In this document: piece by piece, positions 19,739-28,878 of the stretch
How positions within the stretch are numbered: position 1 is the first letter of the stretch
How the letters are laid out: every line of letters begins with the position of its first letter
Source of the DNA: Promethearchaeota archaeon
GTDB taxonomy: Archaea > Asgardarchaeota > Lokiarchaeia > Sigyniarchaeales > SOKP01
Assembly: GCA_016839555.1 (NCBI GenBank)
Contig: JAEOUA010000003.1
Location: forward strand, 96,001 to 160,000
Direction: 5' to 3'
Length of the DNA stretch: 64,000 bases
Program-made: the position numbers and the translations under genes
The notes under the pieces: generated by a model
Seen by the model: the letters and a program-made list of their open reading frames with translations, nothing else
What the model was told of the DNA's origin: nothing
Databases searched by the model: none

Positions 19739-20052
19739 TTGTCATATTCGTTGATAATATCGAAGATTTTGCATATTTTCTCCATAAAAGAATTATGGAT
19801 GAAATTTTTTATGAATTCAGAGAAAGGAAAAAGGATGAAGATCTTGGCAGCAAAACTGAAACAGAAGTGATATTTCACTTTCTTAGTAAGGTAGAATCTT
19901 CTTTAATTCTTTACGAAACAAAATTAATATTATCATCCCAAAATGAGGAGCAATTAATTAACCAAGCTCAAGAAATATTAAATAAGGTAGATAATTCTAT
20001 TAAATTTGTGAGAGGAAAAATTAGAGAGATTTTTTTATCTTACTCCTTATGA
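19735..20052 (+). CDS. hypothetical protein
   Basis: 105-aa ORF whose TTG start overlaps the upstream stop (translational coupling). Confidence 0.55.
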   Translation: MIVIFVDNIEDFAYFLHKRIMDEIFYEFRERKKDEDLGSKTETEVIFHFLSKVESSLILYETKLILSSQNEEQLINQAQEILNKVDNSIKFVRGKIREIFLSYSL

Positions 20053-21596
20053 TCTACTCTCATTCCATAACCTATCAATCTGTATCTTCTATTAATGATT
20101 CTCGAAATCGCAAAAATAAAGTCGTTTGGAATACAAATTGGAGGATTCAAGTTAATTATATAACTATTTTTTAAGATCTTAGAAACAGTTCCTGCAGCCT
20201 TTTCTGTGCCCACTACGATAAGAAATTTTTCTCCATGCTTTAAATCATGCACTTTAATCATTTCCTCAGCTCCTATAACTCTATCTAATAAATGAACCTC
20301 TAATTCAACTTCATCTATTAATTCAGGCAAAGAGCCGGGTTTTCCGGCTAAATTTCCAATTAAAGCATCTCCTTTTGTCAAGGCGGGGTCCAATTTAGTC
20401 CCTAGTCCAATTAGACCGCCAGGTTTTGCTTTTTTTAAAAACTTATTACCTTGGCTTATACTGACTATTGTTGATTTTAAAGGTCTATATTGATTTTTTA
20501 CCTTCAATCCAGGACTTATTTCGACTTTATCTCCAATTTCAATCTTACCTTGTAATACCTGACCACCAATTACACCTCCAATAAGTTTATCAATTTCTTT
20601 CCCAGGTCTATTTACATCAAATGAACGAGCAATTAAAAATTCAAAATCTTGAGTTTCATCAAATTCAGGAGTAAGAATTACTTCTTGAATTGCTCTGACC
20701 ACAAGTTCGATATTAATACCAAATAAGGCTGATATGGGAATAATAGGTGCATTTTCTGCAACTGTTCCTTTTACAAATTCTTTTATTTGACGATAATTTT
20801 TTAAAGCATCTTCTTTAGTAACAGCATCAATTTTATTTTGAATAATAATAATATTTTCTATACCTGCAATATTTAATGCTGCCAAATGTTCTCTAGTTTG
20901 GGGTTGTGGACATGGTTCATTAGCAGCTATTAATAAACAAGCTCCATCCATAAGTGAGGCTCCACTCAACATTGTAGCCATTAATATTTCGTGTCCTGGA
21001 GCATCTACAAAAGAGATATTTCTTTTAAATTGTAATTGTCCTTTACATTCTGGGCATCTAAATCGAGGTTCCCCCTCTTTTCTAGCTTCATCGACCATAT
21101 ATGAAGTATAATATTTGTCGCATACTGGACAATGGAAAATAGTGGCATTTGAATAACCTAATTTAATCGAAATGCCACGTTCTTGCTCTTCTGAGTGTCT
21201 ATCGGTCCAATCTCCAGTTAAAATCTCAACTAATGTAGTTTTACCGTGATCCACATGTCCAACCAAACCCAGATTCATTTCAGCTTGCTTGTTCATTTGT
21301 TTTTTTAACTCTGATATAGGTATTTCTTCTGTTTTTTTCATTGGTGCTCTTTTTGGCTTTAATTCTTTTTCTATTATTTTCTCTGGAGCTTTAAATCCCT
21401 TTTCTTCAGTTTCTTGTAATAGTTTCTGGGCAGCTTTAATATATTTTAAAGCAGTTGATTCTCCAATACCTTTAACTTTTAATAAATCATCTACCGTTAG
21501 ATTTGCAAGTTTTTTAACAGAATTTATTCCTGCGGCTTCTAAACTCTCAGCAGTTGCTTTTCCAATCCCGGTAATATCTTCTAATTTCAATGACAT
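20040..21596 (-). CDS. eif2g: translation initiation factor aIF2 gamma with N-terminal helix-hairpin-helix extension
   Basis: GHVDHGKT, RGISIKLGY, Zn knuckle, DAPGHE, NKID and RYRLIGYG; N-terminal ITGIG...VKGIG tandem HhH. Confidence 0.93.
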   Translation of the reverse strand: MSLKLEDITGIGKATAESLEAAGINSVKKLANLTVDDLLKVKGIGESTALKYIKAAQKLLQETEEKGFKAPEKIIEKELKPKRAPMKKTEEIPISELKKQMNKQAEMNLGLVGHVDHGKTTLVEILTGDWTDRHSEEQERGISIKLGYSNATIFHCPVCDKYYTSYMVDEARKEGEPRFRCPECKGQLQFKRNISFVDAPGHEILMATMLSGASLMDGACLLIAANEPCPQPQTREHLAALNIAGIENIIIIQNKIDAVTKEDALKNYRQIKEFVKGTVAENAPIIPISALFGINIELVVRAIQEVILTPEFDETQDFEFLIARSFDVNRPGKEIDKLIGGVIGGQVLQGKIEIGDKVEISPGLKVKNQYRPLKSTIVSISQGNKFLKKAKPGGLIGLGTKLDPALTKGDALIGNLAGKPGSLPELIDEVELEVHLLDRVIGAEEMIKVHDLKHGEKFLIVVGTEKAAGTVSKILKNSYIINLNPPICIPNDFIFAISRIINRRYRLIGYGMRVDHKE

Positions 21597-22252: not shown

Positions 22253-24415
22253 ATGGCTCTAATCCGTAAAAAAAGCTTTATTTTGGTACTCCTTTTTTTA
22301 TTTATTTTTAGTATTTCGAGTATTTCTATTCTTTATTATAATGAATTGGCTCTTAAAAACGAAAATGAGGCATTAGCTTCTAATGGAAGCTCTCAATTTA
22401 CTTTTCCTTTGTTGCCCTCGATTGATTATGAATCATTAAATGATACTTGGTATAATCCAAAATTAGAGATGATAATTATAGTACCAAATGGAAGCGAAAT
22501 TTTTGCGAATGCGTGTAAACCGTTAGCAGAATGGAAGAATCAAAAAGGAGTGAAAACTCTAATATTAAGCAATTATTCTTTATATCCTGGAGAAGATAAT
22601 CAATCAAAAATAAGAAATATGATAAAATCATACTATGAATCTGATGGAATTAGATGGGTCTTATTAGCTGGAGATGCTCAAGATGATTTGATCCCAATAC
22701 GGAAAATCTATAATCCAGATACAATAGTTATAGGTGATACTGAACCTCATGGTTTTAGCCAGTCTTATAAACCTACAGATTATTACTATGCGGATCTTAC
22801 AGGAAGCTGGGATTCGGATGGTGATGGAATTTATGGAGAAATAACATTATTTTCAGATGAAATAAATTGGATTCCAGAAGTTTATGTTGGACGTTTGCCA
22901 GCAAGTAATGTTAATGAACTTTCTGAAATGATTAATAAAACACTAAAATATGAAGAAGATCCAGAAATAGGTGATTGGATGAATAGAATGTTATTAGCAG
23001 GGGGAGTATCAGAACCAGTTAATCCAATAAAAGATCCTGATGGAGAAGATGAAGCAAGGCTCACTTCATATATCTTACAATATTATGTTCAAGATCAGAT
23101 GAATTCAACCCATCTTTGTCGTACTACCTCAGCTTATACACCACCAGTTCCCTATGAAGATCTAAATCATAGTAGTTTCAATAATTCCTTTAATGATGGA
23201 TATTCTACAATATTATTTGCTGGTCATGGTGATTATGATGAATTCGCTGATGCGGATGGTGGTATTAGAACATTATATACGAGTGGAGATGCTCAAGATT
23301 GTTCGAATGCTTATAATCCATCCCTAGTTTATGCTGATGCGTGTACAACTTCCTGTTATGACTCTGATGATTTTGATAATAATATTGGAGAGATCTTAAT
23401 TAAGAATAAAAATGGTGGCGCAATCGGGTACATCGGTGGATTAAGATTAACCTGGTATTATACTAATGATTATTTACTTGAGGCGCTCAATCGAGGGAAT
23501 GCGAAATATTTCTGGAAAGTATTTTTTGAGGATAAAATATTCCAGCAAGGAAAAGCATTATATGATTCGAAAGTTTCCTATATGAATAGTTTTTACTATA
23601 AATTTAAGAGAGTTCCATATCATGTAGAAGCCGAGCGCAAGCAATTATCAACATATTGTTTGTTAGGAGATCCGGAAGTGGATATATATACGGATATTCC
23701 CGGTAAAATCGAAAATATTTCACTCCCTTCAACTATCTATGAAGGGCAGTTAGTAGAAATAGAAAAAATTACAGATAATTATAGTAGAATTGTTCCTTAC
23801 CCCCGTCTTTATATTACCACAGAGGATGGCATAGAAAGAACAGTCTATGGCGATAAAAACGGAAATGTGAAATTTCGATTACCTTTAGGAGCGTATAAAA
23901 CCTATAATATATCAATATCTGGTCATAATTTGGACAAATTTTCCAATTTTTCTTTTATTACTGAGCCTGATAATAATCTTCCAAAAATAAACAATTTTTT
24001 ATATTCTCCAAATCAGCCCACTGTATCTACAAATATTAACTGGTATTTTAAGACTACTGATAATGAATCCGGAATAGAAAGTCTATTTCTTATATATTCA
24101 GCAGATAATTTTAAAACCTATCAATATATTCAGTTTAAAAATGATTTTACTGAAAATCAAGAAGATTTTATGTTTCGAACCTTAAAATTGGAGCCCGGAG
24201 ATTATCAATATATCTTATATGCAAGGGATTATGCTAACCATGGAATTTATTTATGGTTACCTTCTTTTCAAATTTCTATTAACATTCCACTAACTTACTA
24301 TTTCATTGAAAGTATTGCCATAACCTTTGCAATTATTGCTGCTGGTTTTTGTATATATTATGTGGTTATATTAAAAAATTACCCAAGAAAAATAGAAAAA
24401 TTCACAGAAATCTAA
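22253..24415 (+). CDS. C25 family (gingipain-like) cysteine peptidase, membrane-anchored
   Basis: Signal/TM; WKNQKG, VLLAGD, DYYYADL, VGRLP, catalytic AGHG and DAC, GGAIGYIG, LLGDP; C-terminal TM. Confidence 0.88.
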   Translation: MALIRKKSFILVLLFLFIFSISSISILYYNELALKNENEALASNGSSQFTFPLLPSIDYESLNDTWYNPKLEMIIIVPNGSEIFANACKPLAEWKNQKGVKTLILSNYSLYPGEDNQSKIRNMIKSYYESDGIRWVLLAGDAQDDLIPIRKIYNPDTIVIGDTEPHGFSQSYKPTDYYYADLTGSWDSDGDGIYGEITLFSDEINWIPEVYVGRLPASNVNELSEMINKTLKYEEDPEIGDWMNRMLLAGGVSEPVNPIKDPDGEDEARLTSYILQYYVQDQMNSTHLCRTTSAYTPPVPYEDLNHSSFNNSFNDGYSTILFAGHGDYDEFADADGGIRTLYTSGDAQDCSNAYNPSLVYADACTTSCYDSDDFDNNIGEILIKNKNGGAIGYIGGLRLTWYYTNDYLLEALNRGNAKYFWKVFFEDKIFQQGKALYDSKVSYMNSFYYKFKRVPYHVEAERKQLSTYCLLGDPEVDIYTDIPGKIENISLPSTIYEGQLVEIEKITDNYSRIVPYPRLYITTEDGIERTVYGDKNGNVKFRLPLGAYKTYNISISGHNLDKFSNFSFITEPDNNLPKINNFLYSPNQPTVSTNINWYFKTTDNESGIESLFLIYSADNFKTYQYIQFKNDFTENQEDFMFRTLKLEPGDYQYILYARDYANHGIYLWLPSFQISINIPLTYYFIESIAITFAIIAAGFCIYYVVILKNYPRKIEKFTEI

Positions 24416-24591: not shown

Positions 24592-24657
24592 AAACCATCA
24601 AGTTTTAAGTTATCAATTTCTTAGAAATTGAGATTACTTAAAAATCAACTATGGTTT
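24592..24657 (+). other. long imperfect hairpin followed by a T10 tract, directly upstream of the permuted 5S locus
   Basis: Nested inverted repeats AAACCAT/ATGGTTT, TTTTAAGT/ACTTAAAA and TCAATTTC/GAAATTGA; T10 at 24655-24664. Confidence 0.55.
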
Positions 24658-24664
24658 TTTTTTT

Positions 24665-24840
24665 GGCCACATAAAATGCAGCTCTTCGCTGCAGCGCCGA
24701 AAGTTAAACTTTGTTGCGTTAGCGATAGTACTTCTGTTGAAATCAGCGGGAAACGCTAAACTGTAAGTTCGCTTACGGTCATAGTAACAAGGGATAGTAC
24801 CCGGTCCCATACCGAACCCGGAAACGCTTTTTATGTGGCT
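24665..24840 (+). ncRNA. precursor of permuted 5S rRNA with terminal processing stem and BHB-like motif
   Basis: GCCACATAAAA (24666-24676) / TTTTATGTGGC (24829-24839) stem; side hairpin TGCAGC/GCTGCA; GCG/CGC helix; AAA bulge at 24822-24824; central CCG/CGG helix. Confidence 0.75.
24703..24823 (+). rRNA. rrf: 5S rRNA, circularly permuted gene (3' half 24703-24767, UUCG linker, 5' half 24772-24823)
   Basis: Conserved loop C CCCATACCGAAC. Helix I ACTGTAAG/CTTACGGT closed by TTCG. Helix II GTAACAAGG/CTTTGTTGC. Helix TTAGCG/CGCTAA with loop-E AGTA/GAA. Length 121 nt. Confidence 0.88.
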
Positions 24841-24950
24841 AAATAATTTTTATAATGCTTCTTCTATCTATAGTATCCTTTTGCCATAATTTTTTAAACA
24901 ATTAATAATATCTTAAATATAATATATTATTTTATCGCTTGAATAATAAT

Positions 24951-25451
24951 ATGGTAAAGAAATACGTCATTTTTCTCAAAAGAATTTGGAGATCATGGTT
25001 TATAATCTTAGTAATAATTATTATTATCCTTGCGTTTTATAATTTAATTGCAGCCATAATTTTAACGGGTATAACACTTCTTTTATTTGTATTTTCTTAT
25101 ATTCCGTCCTTCTTCTTTAAAAATAGAGTAGTGCGCTTTCTAAAAAATTATTATAGGATTAAAGATGATGATATCATTAAGCATTTTAGCAATAAAAAAG
25201 ATAAAATAAAAAAGGTTCTATTTGATTTAGCACAGGATCAAGCAAAAAAAGATTGGCTCATCGTGTTTGTAAATAATCATTACATCTATTTTCATAAAGA
25301 TATAATTGAGAAATATAAAAATCTCTATCAAAAAGGTTACGGCGAAAAAAAGATTTTTGATCTATTACAAAAGATTGATATTGAGACGAGAGCAGAAATT
25401 AAAGCAATAAATACTACTTTAAAGGCACATAATAGACTTTCAGAAGAATAA
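24951..25451 (+). CDS. membrane protein (2 N-terminal TM segments)
   Basis: Hydrophobic N-terminus and basic soluble domain; ATG 24951 preferred over TTG 24939. Confidence 0.6.
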   Translation: MVKKYVIFLKRIWRSWFIILVIIIIILAFYNLIAAIILTGITLLLFVFSYIPSFFFKNRVVRFLKNYYRIKDDDIIKHFSNKKDKIKKVLFDLAQDQAKKDWLIVFVNNHYIYFHKDIIEKYKNLYQKGYGEKKIFDLLQKIDIETRAEIKAINTTLKAHNRLSEE

Positions 25452-25475: not shown

Positions 25476-25949
25476 TTATTTCCGATTTCCTTTTTTAATC
25501 ATTTGGATTTCCAATAAAATTCCTAGAGAATCTATTGTGTCAAAATAGGCAACATATTGCGTAAAGAATTGTCCAATAAACACCGCTTCTATATTATTCT
25601 TCTTAAATAATTCAATATACGGATCAAGATCTTCTACCATACCACTTATATGTTGAAGTCCTTCGTGTCCATTATCCAAGAATTCTTGATGTATTCCTTC
25701 ACCAGAGATTGGCTGAATAAGTTCAATTTGTTTGCCCCAATATCGACTCAATGCAAGTCTCAATGTGCAAATTGATTTTTTTCCCCGAAAAACAACTTCA
25801 GATGTTACATCTGGAAAAATTGCAAATTTCGGCATATTCCATAATTTCTCCATTACTTTAGTTTGTTTTTCAACATCTTTATATACATATCCTAATTGCA
25901 TAATTTCCAAATCTCCAATATTCATATCTAATGATTTTTCGTCTGACAT
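25476..25949 (-). CDS. VOC/glyoxalase family protein (methylmalonyl-CoA epimerase-like), copy 1
   Basis: QLGYVYKD, QIELIQP, EGLQHI and LLEIQ metal-binding pattern. Confidence 0.85.
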   Translation of the reverse strand: MSDEKSLDMNIGDLEIMQLGYVYKDVEKQTKVMEKLWNMPKFAIFPDVTSEVVFRGKKSICTLRLALSRYWGKQIELIQPISGEGIHQEFLDNGHEGLQHISGMVEDLDPYIELFKKNNIEAVFIGQFFTQYVAYFDTIDSLGILLEIQMIKKGNRK

Positions 25950-26176: not shown

Positions 26177-26650
26177 TTATTTTCGACTTCTTTTTTTAGT
26201 CATTTGTAATTCCAATAGAAAACCTAAAGAATCAGTTGTATCAAAATATGAAAAATACTGCTTTCCTATATTTCCACTAAATACAGCTTCTATATTATTC
26301 TTCTTAAATAATTCAATGTATGAATCAAGATCTTCTACCATACAACTTATATGTTGAAGTCCTTCGTGTCCATTATCCAAGAATTCTTGATGTATTCCTT
26401 CACCAGAGATTGGCTGAATAAGTTCAATTTGTTTGCCCCAATATCGAGTGAATGCAATTCTAGTAGTATAAACTGATTTTTTCCCCCGATAAATAACTTC
26501 ATTTTTGTTATCAGGAAGAATTGCAAATTTCGGCATTCCCCACACCTGCTCCATTATCTTAGCTTGTTTTTCAACATCCTTATAGACGTAGCCTAGTTGG
26601 AAAATTTCCAAATCTCCTATATTCATATCTAAAAGTTTTTGATCTGACAT
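26177..26650 (-). CDS. VOC/glyoxalase family protein, copy 2
   Basis: Paralog of 25476..25949 with the same length (157 aa). Confidence 0.85.
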   Translation of the reverse strand: MSDQKLLDMNIGDLEIFQLGYVYKDVEKQAKIMEQVWGMPKFAILPDNKNEVIYRGKKSVYTTRIAFTRYWGKQIELIQPISGEGIHQEFLDNGHEGLQHISCMVEDLDSYIELFKKNNIEAVFSGNIGKQYFSYFDTTDSLGFLLELQMTKKRSRK

Positions 26651-26786: not shown

Positions 26787-27770
26787 ATGCGGTTTATTTT
26801 TGGATTAAAAAAACTATTCTCTAAATGGATTTATGCTCTTATAATAATCTCTTTTTTAGTATCATGGTTTTTCACTTTATTAGGTATTGTTTTTTTTCCA
26901 GAAAAAGCATTTTTTCAAATTATTCGAATTATAATAAGCGTTTTATTTGGTTTTAATTGTTTACTCTTTATTTTTTCATTTTTTAAATCCCTTGATAAAG
27001 TACATTATATTTTTATAAGCATTGCGTTTATAACGAGTAATTTTTTCTTATTTGTATTTGATAATACTATTTCAATATTGTTTGAGTTCTTTTATACTAC
27101 CAATTTAATTCTAAATTCTCTTTTTGCCTTTATATTATGCATAGATTATGCTATTAATATTGATAATTATTTAACTAAAAAAGACAGAAATATAATTTTT
27201 AGGATAATATTCTGGATCAATATTATTTTTTTTATAATGGAAATTTTCACTTTTTTTTTTGCTATAGAGGATCAATACCAAATTTTTAGGATATTACTTT
27301 GGGTTAATATTGTTTTTTTATTAGGTTTAATAGTGAATTTAATAATAAATAAAAAAATAATCGCTTATTTTGCCTTGTTTCTTCTTTTAATATTTCTGTA
27401 TATACTATATAGAGTAGTCAAGTTTTATATTAATTCTTCTGGTTATATATTTTTATCATATATTTTAGATTTGATTTTATTCATATATATTATTGGCTCT
27501 CTCTTTAACAAAAAACACTTTTTTAAAGAGAAAATGAAATATTTACGAATAGAAACTATTATCCTTTTAGTTATAATTATGAAATTTGTAATTCAAGGAT
27601 TTCAAATTATATCTTCGATTAGTGGAATTAATATCTCAATAAATTTATATAATGAAGATGATAATATGATTCTTTTTATCATATTTATTATATTGTTTGA
27701 AATCTATGGATTAATTAAATATAAAATAAAAAATGGAAAAAGTGAAAACAATATTATCAATTATGATTAA
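26787..27770 (+). CDS. polytopic membrane protein, divergent copy
   Basis: Highly hydrophobic; paralog of 27862..28878 (shared N-terminus and SYILDLILFIYI). Confidence 0.7.
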   Translation: MRFIFGLKKLFSKWIYALIIISFLVSWFFTLLGIVFFPEKAFFQIIRIIISVLFGFNCLLFIFSFFKSLDKVHYIFISIAFITSNFFLFVFDNTISILFEFFYTTNLILNSLFAFILCIDYAINIDNYLTKKDRNIIFRIIFWINIIFFIMEIFTFFFAIEDQYQIFRILLWVNIVFLLGLIVNLIINKKIIAYFALFLLLIFLYILYRVVKFYINSSGYIFLSYILDLILFIYIIGSLFNKKHFFKEKMKYLRIETIILLVIIMKFVIQGFQIISSISGINISINLYNEDDNMILFIIFIILFEIYGLIKYKIKNGKSENNIINYD

Positions 27771-27861
27771 AAGAAATTAATATTTAACTTTTCTATTGAA
27801 AAATAAATTTAAATTCTTTATAAAATTTTAAATCCCATAAAAACAACCTTAATTTTGAAAA

Positions 27862-28878
27862 ATGCGGTTTATCTCTGGTTTAAAAAAATTATTCTCAAAA
27901 CGGATATATGCTCTGATCATCATCTATTTTTTAGTATCGTGGTTTTTAATTTTATTAGGTATTGTTTTTTTCCCGGCAGAGGCATTTTTTCAAATCATTC
28001 GAATTATATTAAGTGTTTTATTTGGTTTCAGTTTATTGTTATTCATCTTTTCATTTTTTAAACCGCTAGATGAACTTCATTATGGTTTTATAATTGTTGC
28101 GTTTATTGGGGGCTTATTTTTCTTGATTATATTCGACAACATTATTACACTATTCTATATTTTCTGTTTTTATGCTAATCTCGTTTTAACCGCATTCTTT
28201 GCTTTCAAACTTTGTATGGATTCTGCTATCAATGTAGATAACTATTTATCTAAAAAAGAGAAATATCGGAAAGTACTACGTGTTTTCGAATTTATATTTT
28301 TTACTTTTTTAAATATAGTTAGCTTTTTATTTACACTTAATTTTTTTAGAAGAGTTCTACGACTTCCTCCCTTAGTCGAATTGGTATTTCGAGTAATATT
28401 TTGGTTAAATATAATATTTTTAATGGGAATTGTAATTAGATTGCTAATTACTAAAAAATTTGCGGCATATTTTGCGTTATTTCTTCTATTAGTCTTTCTC
28501 TATATGCTATACAGGGTTGTGGATTTTTATGCTGAAATTATTTTTGCTAATTCATCTGGTTATGATTTTTTTTCATATATTTTAGATTTGATTTTATTCA
28601 TATACATTATGGGGTCTATATTTGATAGGGTGGACTTTCTAAAAGAAAAATTAAAATATCTAAGAGCGGATACTATTGCACTCTTTGTGATTATTATGAA
28701 ACTTGTTGTTCAAGGATTTGAAATAGTAACATCGATTAGTGGAGCTAATGCCCCACCTCAGATACAGGATGAATTAGGTATTATGATTCTCTTTATCATA
28801 TTCACGTTGTCATTCGGTATCTATAAATTAATTAAACATAGCGCAGAATTAAAAAAAACTGAAATTGATATAAAATAA
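27862..28878 (+). CDS. polytopic membrane protein
   Basis: About ten hydrophobic segments. Confidence 0.75.
   Translation: MRFISGLKKLFSKRIYALIIIYFLVSWFLILLGIVFFPAEAFFQIIRIILSVLFGFSLLLFIFSFFKPLDELHYGFIIVAFIGGLFFLIIFDNIITLFYIFCFYANLVLTAFFAFKLCMDSAINVDNYLSKKEKYRKVLRVFEFIFFTFLNIVSFLFTLNFFRRVLRLPPLVELVFRVIFWLNIIFLMGIVIRLLITKKFAAYFALFLLLVFLYMLYRVVDFYAEIIFANSSGYDFFSYILDLILFIYIMGSIFDRVDFLKEKLKYLRADTIALFVIIMKLVVQGFEIVTSISGANAPPQIQDELGIMILFIIFTLSFGIYKLIKHSAELKKTEIDIK

What the first reader, a model, noticed from the sequence alone, without database searches (positions are those of the whole stretch)
24703..24823. Circularly permuted 5S rRNA gene
Seen in sequence: this GC-rich intergenic block holds a full 5S fold in the wrong linear order. 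The canonical 3' half comes first (GTTAAACTTTGTTGCG...AGTA...GAAACGCTAAACTGTAAG, 24703-24767). A TTCG linker follows, then the canonical 5' half (CTTACGGTCATAG...CCCATACCGAACCCGGAA, 24772-24823). The normal 5'/3' termini of helix I (8 bp) are therefore covalently joined by a UUCG tetraloop, and the new ends fall just after helix III. Helices I, II (9 bp), III and IV/V all still pair, arguing against a decayed pseudogene. Established: permuted archaeal tRNA genes (Thermofilum), permuted SRP RNA (Thermoproteus) and permuted organellar 5S genes are known. I know of no described permuted 5S gene in Asgard archaea. Inference: standard linear covariance-model searches would miss or truncate this gene.
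Basis: partly seen in the sequence, partly recalled or inferred. Interest (0 to 1): 0.95.

Follow-up and report, generated by a model that had tools for sequence, protein, structure and literature searches.

The report
Circularly permuted Asgard 5S rRNA gene
This Lokiarchaeia-type Asgard archaeon encodes its 5S ribosomal RNA back half first, between tRNA-intron-type cut signals whose cutting and rejoining would restore a normal 121-base 5S as a closed ring; the same layout in most Asgard families explains why gene finders miss their 5S genes.

Summary
Confirmed. 24703-24823 is a circularly permuted 5S rRNA gene. RF00001 gives two sub-threshold half hits in swapped order. The rearranged sequence scores 60.8 bits on a canonical Asgard 5S profile, against 22.9 in genomic order and at most 4.1 for 500 shuffles.

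Leader and trailer form a long stem topped by a bulge-helix-bulge (BHB). Its predicted cuts (24702/24703, 24823/24824) fall on the two-A bulge inside helix III and rebuild the canonical sequence as a 121-nt circle. Both the 5S helices and the BHB covary. Relatives move the break to loop C or loop B with the same geometry, and many carry 30-nt BHB-type introns whose removal restores the canonical length.

A permuted model hits 27/29 family genomes and about 19 of 25 Asgard families; canonical and permuted genes are mutually exclusive by family. The genome encodes a crenarchaeal-type splicing endonuclease, RtcB, uL5 and uL18.

Processing is inferred: no RNA data were available, and this assembly lacks its 23S gene. 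I found no published report. This scan noted the same layout earlier in at least 47 other genomes.

The parts
24637..24644 (+). Archaeal TATA-like box (CTTAAAAA), 29 nt before the leader stem; candidate promoter of a stand-alone 5S transcript
   Evidence: A YTTAW motif lies 26-31 nt before the leader stem in 14 of 17 family loci examined. Function inferred.
24665..24676 (+). Leader arm of the outer processing stem; probable transcript 5' end
   Evidence: Pairs with 24829-24840 in the fold of 24664-24842 (-65.1 kcal/mol, z -5.05); equivalent arms in relatives.
24677..24693 (+). Leader hairpin (6 bp) just before the BHB; role unknown
   Evidence: a hairpin of variable sequence sits at this place in most family members.
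24694..24705 (+). 5' strand of the BHB: outer GCG 24694-24696, central helix strand CCGA 24697-24700 (A.C mismatch at 24700), bulge with predicted cut between 24702 and 24703
   Evidence: Best-scoring of 23 BHB-like candidates; 98.7% of cells paired with compensatory changes in outer and central helix.
24703..24767 (+). Canonical 3' part of 5S: proximal helix III 3' strand, loop B, helix II 3' strand, helix V, loop E, helix IV, loop D, helix I 3' strand
   Evidence: RF00001 half hit; nhmmer profile positions 50-115.
24768..24771 (+). UUCG tetraloop joining the native 3' and 5' ends of helix I
   Evidence: 4-nt cap in 50 family loci matched, TTCG in 34; one relative has a 31-nt hairpin added there.
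24772..24823 (+). Canonical 5' part of 5S: helix I 5' strand, loop A, helix II 5' strand, loop B, helix III, loop C, ending in the two-A bulge
   Evidence: RF00001 half hit 27.2 bits; nhmmer profile positions 3-52.
24815..24827 (+). 3' strand of the BHB: AAC, central helix strand CCGG 24818-24821 (also the 3' strand of mature helix III), 3-nt bulge with predicted cut between 24823 and 24824, outer CGC
   Evidence: The central position covaries three ways with the leader and with helix III 5' strand in 40 loci.
24829..24840 (+). Trailer arm of the outer processing stem
   Evidence: conserved complementarity in relatives.
24847..24851 (+). T-run after the stem; candidate archaeal terminator
   Evidence: Sequence; T-rich tracts follow the stem in most relatives. 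Inferred.

Best explanation
This is the organism's working 5S rRNA gene, stored as a circular permutation. (1, inferred) A stand-alone precursor of about 180 nt is transcribed from the TATA box. (2, shown by fold and covariation) Leader and trailer pair into a stem topped by a relaxed BHB that borrows the 3' strand of helix III as its central helix. (3, inferred from the established BHB rule) The tRNA splicing endonuclease cuts 2 nt into each bulge, at 24702/24703 and 24823/24824. (4, inferred) RtcB joins 24823 to 24703, giving a 121-nt circle of canonical 5S sequence, and helix III refolds. (5, least certain) The circle, with helix I closed by the tetraloop, is the form that binds uL5 and uL18 and enters the large subunit. 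I put cut-and-join at about 0.85 and retention of the ring, given joining, at about 0.75.
For: Predicted cuts give the top 5S score and canonical length, and most shifts of 1-3 nt lose 7-20 bits; only compensating shifts within the shared AA give the same product. The same holds in 19 of 22 order-level loci; two exceptions carry an intron and one has a poorly paired outer helix. BHB pairs covary, and the leader base tracks both helix III strands in 40 loci: C/C/G 22, T/T/A 16, T/C/G 2, none unpaired. The break moves to loop C in 10 of 50 family-type genes and to loop B in another family, always with a BHB that restores the canonical junction. 30-nt BHB/BHL-shaped inserts in loop C and loop D restore 120-122 nt when spliced. 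A BHB with the canonical product was the top candidate in 15 of 21 loci from other Asgard families. The genome has two EndA subunits, the catalytic one closest to Aeropyrum EndA with Lys at the position of K44 of the broad-specificity loop (PMC3241643), RtcB, uL18 and uL5, and many intron-containing tRNA calls. Precedent: Thermoproteus SRP RNA (PMC4731332). An engineered E. coli 5S with native ends joined by 4 nt works in ribosomes (PMC7283268).
Against: No RNA evidence was obtained here. In this genome the BHB is imperfect: the central helix has an A.C mismatch (also in the JGI relative), and the 5'-strand bulge is either 2 nt plus an inner helix or an open loop. Permuted tRNAs use the same circle only as an intermediate and are reopened (PMC3326292, PMC4267664). 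This assembly lacks 23S and has 16S only at a contig end, so a canonical 5S in unassembled DNA is not excluded from this genome alone. BHB geometry is weaker in families f4, f15, f16 and f24 and in one of two f7 copies.
Confidence: 0.65

Rival explanations
1. The precursor is cut and ligated at the BHB, but the circle is an intermediate and is reopened at the helix I tetraloop to give an ordinary linear 5S, as for permuted tRNAs.
For: Permuted tRNAs mature this way (PMC4267664, PMC3326292); circular 23S is reopened in Pyrococcus (PMC7758197, cited in PMC12918454). The cap varies in loop and closing pair, and one relative has a 31-nt hairpin there.
Against: The linker is 4 nt in nearly all loci, mostly UUCG, with no room for a processing signal. 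The 31-nt insert has no BHB geometry. A capped helix I is tolerated in ribosomes (PMC7283268). The SRP precedent and many archaeal 23S rRNAs stay circular (PMC4731332, PMC12918454).
Confidence: 0.18
2. The mature 5S is a linear permuted molecule: either cut at the BHB and left nicked, or uncut with the leader/trailer stem kept as an expansion segment on helix III.
For: Linear permuted 5S is documented in stramenopile mitochondria (PMC4267664). The BHB here has a mismatch. Engineered 5S opened in loop C or D still works (PMC7283268).
Against: The leader strand competes for the helix III 3' strand, so the uncut precursor cannot form helix III and the BHB at once, yet both covary. Three different break points each restore the junction to the base. 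Internal introns in relatives need ligation, so the ligase must meet this RNA.
Confidence: 0.12
3. A rearranged relic or secondary copy; the ribosomal 5S comes from a canonical gene in unassembled DNA.
For: The assembly is 92% complete and lacks 23S and part of 16S.
Against: Compensatory changes in all helices; conserved promoter spacing and synteny; no canonical 5S in 29 family genomes, several 98-100% complete; single-contig genomes of families f5, f7, f15 and f20 have the permuted form and no canonical hit.
Confidence: 0.04
4. Assembly artefact.
For: None beyond the assembly being a MAG that I could not check against reads.
Against: Same order and flanks in about 50 distinct genes from independent assemblies, with divergent sequence and covariation.
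Confidence: 0.01

Closest known systems
Permuted SRP RNA gene of Thermoproteus tenax and T. uzoniensis (Plagens et al. 2015, PMC4731332)
   Same: Universal structural RNA gene with shifted ends, short leader from a TATA promoter, leader-trailer BHB, circle that restores a conserved motif; heterotetrameric relaxed endonuclease plus RtcB.
   Different: There the RNA is SRP RNA, limited to one genus, and circularity and cleavage were shown. Here it is a ribosomal RNA, spread over most Asgard families, with several break points and internal introns, and processing is only predicted.
Circularly permuted tRNA genes (Cyanidioschyzon merolae, Soma et al. 2007, as cited in PMC4267664 and PMC3326292; Thermofilum, from my own knowledge)
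   Same: Halves in swapped order, ends joined through a splicing-type circular intermediate.
   Different: The tRNA circle must be reopened at the acceptor stem. Here the native ends are closed by a 4-nt loop and nothing requires reopening.
Permuted mitochondrial 5S rRNA of brown algae and other stramenopiles (Valach et al. 2014, PMC4267664)
   Same: Natural 5S with helix I closed as a hairpin and new gene ends; poorly detected by the standard model.
   Different: Organellar; ends at the three-way junction; permuted and linear in the final product; no BHB described. Here the break is inside helix III or loops C/B and is flanked by a splice motif.
BHB-mediated circular pre-16S/23S rRNA and circular or permuted mature 23S in archaea (PMC7758197, PMC12918454)
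   Same: EndA and RtcB act on an rRNA precursor through a leader-trailer BHB; circular 23S can be in ribosomes.
   Different: Those genes are colinear and the BHB lies outside the native ends. PMC12918454 states that 5S is not processed this way. Low-level 5S circles in Sulfolobus came from a normal gene and were not validated (PMC3326292).
Engineered circularly permuted 5S in E. coli (Huang et al. 2020, PMC7283268)
   Same: Native ends joined by a 4-nt connector; functional in ribosomes.
   Different: Artificial, fused into 23S, not a free circle.

Membership tests
5S rRNA (RF00001) | Reaches the family gathering score as a linear gene | tested here: not met
   27.2 and 17.2 bits as two halves, cut-off 38; expected for a permuted gene.
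5S rRNA (RF00001) | Full-length 5S sequence once rearranged | tested here: met
   60.8 bits over positions 4-117 of a 121-position profile from 21 canonical Asgard 5S genes; shuffles at most 4.1.
5S rRNA (RF00001) | Helices I-V with covariation, about 120 nt | tested here: met
   94.8% of cells paired, 21 of 35 pairs compensatory; 121 nt.
5S rRNA (RF00001) | Expressed and bound in the large subunit with uL5 and uL18 | not testable with these tools
   uL5 and uL18 genes are present; no RNA run was listed.
BHB-matured permuted RNA genes (Thermoproteus SRP RNA type) | Gene halves in swapped order with native ends linked | tested here: met
BHB-matured permuted RNA genes (Thermoproteus SRP RNA type) | Leader-trailer BHB/BHL: 4-bp central helix with at least one 3-nt bulge | tested here: met
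   Relaxed form here (3 of 4 central pairs, one clean 3-nt bulge); 4 of 4 pairs in 38 of 40 family loci.
BHB-matured permuted RNA genes (Thermoproteus SRP RNA type) | Predicted cuts restore the canonical sequence | tested here: met
   three different break points.
BHB-matured permuted RNA genes (Thermoproteus SRP RNA type) | Relaxed-specificity splicing endonuclease and RtcB encoded | tested here: met
   Two EndA subunits, catalytic one aligned to Aeropyrum EndA including the K44-equivalent Lys, second one lacking the catalytic His; RtcB. Specificity inferred from sequence.
BHB-matured permuted RNA genes (Thermoproteus SRP RNA type) | Cleavage, ligation and circular mature RNA shown | not testable with these tools
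   No RNA run listed.
Organellar-type linear permuted 5S | Gene ends at the three-way junction, no splice motif, linear product | tested here: not met
   Break is in helix III and is flanked by a covarying BHB; the product form was not testable.

The most novel reading that the evidence does not exclude
In most Asgard lineages the ribosomal 5S RNA is a covalently closed ring made by the tRNA splicing machinery from a permuted, sometimes intron-bearing gene. The shared break at the helix III bulge across many families points to one old origin with several later returns to a linear gene, so the linear 5S of some Asgard families, and possibly of eukaryotes, would be secondary.
Probability: 0.4. 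Interest if true: 0.9.

Novelty: new variant of a known kind. Interest (0 to 1): 0.78.

Why it matters
5S rRNA is universal and is treated as a linear RNA that archaea do not process through a circle (PMC12918454). The paper on the closed Heimdallarchaeum genomes says 5S genes could not be predicted (PMC8813620). The permuted layout explains that gap: a permuted model finds a gene in about 19 of 25 sampled Asgard families that have no true canonical hit. It makes a base-exact, easily tested prediction (a 121-nt ring with a 24823-to-24703 junction). It would extend EndA/RtcB substrates to a ribosomal RNA that needs splicing to exist, and it adds introns in 5S, for which I found no report. It also bears on what the 5S gene looked like in the archaeal relatives of eukaryotes.

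Tried and rejected
Sequencing runs: no RNA holder was listed, so read laying could not be used; this is no evidence either way. RF00001 on the rearranged sequence: not possible with the tool, replaced by an nhmmer profile of canonical Asgard 5S genes. Unconstrained folding does not recover the full 5S fold or the BHB, so structure claims rest on covariation. My genome contigs pattern had too long a minimum gap (50 against the usual 48), so it returned only 13 loci, biased to genes with inserts; the insert frequency is therefore inflated. The idea that the leader CYGG is a duplicate of the helix III 3' strand was rejected: it follows the 5' strand and is complementary to the 3' strand. The 31-nt insert in the helix I cap of G010 is not BHB-shaped. 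The one over-threshold RF00001 hit in a permuted genome (G130, 38.4 bits) is a half hit padded with flank, not a canonical gene or a tandem read-through. The RpoB tree (27 rows, quick method only, unrooted, single gene, several long branches; G033 labelled from its family) needs 5 changes of state, at least 3 on well-supported branches, and cannot separate gain from loss. The sigma-70 promoter scan is not suited to archaea. Nine literature searches found no permuted, circular or intron-bearing 5S gene in Asgard; subscription journals are not covered.

Full report
Observation. The block 24703-24823 is as described. The default Rfam scan of the window finds only a tRNA-Leu. At relaxed thresholds RF00001 gives two hits in swapped order: the 5' half from 24771 (27.2 bits) and the 3' half ending at 24769 (17.2 bits). 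These are the only 5S-like places in the genome. In 15 family homologues, 94.8% of cells of the 5S structure pair and 21 of 35 pairs change on both sides. The gene is a conserved 5S, not a relic. The break lies inside helix III, at the two-A bulge, not after it.

Identity and context. Related loci are titled Promethearchaeota or Promethearchaeia MAGs, so this is a Lokiarchaeia-type Asgard genome (3.74 Mb, 12 contigs, 92% complete). The gene stands alone between a C25-family peptidase gene (22253-24415) and a 170-aa ORF without a Pfam match (24939-25451). The neighbours are conserved in 38 and 47 of 51 related loci. A TATA-like box lies 29 nt before the leader, with similar spacing in relatives, and a T-run follows the trailer.

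The flanks 24665-24676 and 24829-24840 pair into a long stem (z -5.05). On top of it sits a bulge-helix-bulge: GCG/CGC outer pairs, a central helix CCGA/CCGG, a 3-nt bulge on the trailer strand and a 2-nt bulge or loop on the leader strand. Joining them rebuilds the canonical helix III bulge and a 121-nt circle. Among 23 BHB-like pairings this one scores best, and shifting the cuts lowers the score unless the shift gives the same product. BHB pairs are 98.7% kept, with compensatory changes. The leader base, the helix III 5' base and the helix III 3' base change together in 40 loci (C/C/G 22, T/T/A 16, T/C/G 2; kin are not independent and a few loci may be near duplicates). Both the precursor pairing and the mature pairing of the same strand are therefore under selection. 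In this genome the central helix has an A.C mismatch, shared by an independent JGI contig of a related species, so it is real. The other 38 loci have four pairs.

Natural experiments. Of 50 distinct family-type genes, 40 break at the helix III bulge and 10 in loop C; a genome of another family (G026) breaks in loop B. In each case a BHB sits at the new break and its cuts restore the canonical junction and a length of 119-123 nt. Eight genes carry a 30-nt insert in loop C and ten a 30-nt insert around loop D. Of the 14 tested, the BHB/BHL-shaped excision that restores 120-122 nt was the top-scoring candidate in 12, second in one, and not recovered in one. These inserts look like tRNA-type introns and imply that the splicing machinery handles this RNA.

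Machinery. The genome encodes two EndA subunits. One has the catalytic Tyr, His and Lys motifs and is closest to Aeropyrum EndA (E 5e-40), with a Lys aligned to K44 of the loop that gives broad BHB/BHL specificity (PMC3241643). The other lacks the His and looks structural. RtcB, uL18 and uL5 are present. ARAGORN calls introns in many of its tRNA genes.

Distribution. A covariance model of the permuted gene hits 27 of 29 family genomes and 89 of 151 phylum genomes; two of these are weak partial hits to canonical genes. RF00001 on the same sample hits families f2, f9, f12, f14, f18 and f26, plus one false full-length call in f25, and none of f1 or the other permuted families. The two states are mutually exclusive by family in this sample. 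I checked 21 loci from 18 other families: all have the halves in swapped order, and in 15 the top candidate is a BHB at the same helix III bulge that gives the canonical junction. The sister family f2, which includes 4.3-4.4 Mb single-contig genomes, has ordinary 5S genes. G064, at 3,081,793 bases in one contig, matches the 3.08 Mbp size of a closed Heimdallarchaeum genome whose authors could not predict a 5S gene (PMC8813620; identity inferred from size); it has two permuted copies. A quick unrooted RpoB tree needs five changes of state, at least three on well-supported branches. One origin with reversals fits the shared break point, but the tree does not show it.

Limits. No RNA evidence was obtained. 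This assembly lacks 23S and ends within 16S, so the absence of a canonical 5S rests on relatives and on closed genomes of other families. Whether the ring is final or is reopened at helix I is open. The short, mostly UUCG cap, the SRP precedent (PMC4731332) and the working engineered 5S with a 4-nt connector (PMC7283268) favour a retained ring; permuted tRNAs show the alternative (PMC4267664, PMC3326292).

Comparison and verdict. It works like the permuted SRP RNA gene of Thermoproteus and meets every sequence-level feature of that class; the biochemical feature was not testable. It differs from the permuted algal mitochondrial 5S, which stays linear and has no splice motif. I found no published report for archaeal 5S. 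I reached the BHB reading before consulting the scan's notes; they record the same layout in at least 47 genomes and the loop C introns. One note claims spliced 5S in environmental RNA of a relative, which I could not check. Verdict: real, functional by covariation, a new variant of a known kind, interest 0.78.

Noticed in passing
L007, L012, L015, L058, L067 (loop C); L055, L057, L059, L061-L066 (loop D): Uniform 30-nt BHB/BHL-shaped inserts in relatives' 5S genes whose removal restores the canonical 120-122 nt; probable tRNA-type introns in 5S rRNA at two positions, some combined with the loop C permutation.
   Followed up: partly
L016, L019, L033, L088, L091, L095 (loop C); L032 (loop B): The permutation point has moved within one family and order while leader, trailer and synteny are kept; how a break point moves is unexplained.
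   Followed up: partly
L017:1521-1684 (- strand): G010 has a 31-nt GC-rich hairpin added in the helix I cap; not BHB-shaped, probably an expansion segment.
   Followed up: partly
window 24603-24643: Imperfect palindrome of about 41 bp whose right arm contains the TATA box; conserved in the genus and in genus g3. Possible regulator site or terminator of the upstream gene.
   Followed up: no
window 24677-24693: Leader hairpin directly before the BHB, kept in structure but not sequence across the family; also seen in leaders of some f7 and f15 genes. Role unknown.
   Followed up: partly
window 20040-21596 (- strand): aIF2-gamma (518 aa) with an N-terminal helix-hairpin-helix domain, HHH_5 at residues 4-58.
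   Followed up: partly
L172:134-527: G054 has two tandem permuted 5S copies with a run of N inside the second; may be an assembly gap artefact or a real tandem duplicate.
   Followed up: partly
L025 (G032:C1:1399892-1400758): Sister family f2 has canonical 5S genes, in three tandem copies about 374 bp apart in G032 and two in G039; likely a return to the linear form, not shown.
   Followed up: partly
L171:77-196: RF00001 passes its cut-off (38.4 bits) on the 5' half plus flank of a permuted gene, so standard annotation would call a 5S at wrong coordinates.
   Followed up: yes
L141, L142, L143: Family f4 genes are permuted at the same place but have weak outer pairing at the BHB; they may be processed differently.
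   Followed up: partly
window 25476-25949 and 26177-26650 (- strand); 26787-28878 (+ strand): Two tandem 157-aa glyoxalase-family paralogues (first one tested) and two tandem membrane-protein paralogues downstream of the 5S gene.
   Followed up: no
L059, L062: Records titled Hermodarchaeota and Hodarchaeota share sequence and synteny with this Lokiarchaeia-type family, so their labels are probably wrong.
   Followed up: no
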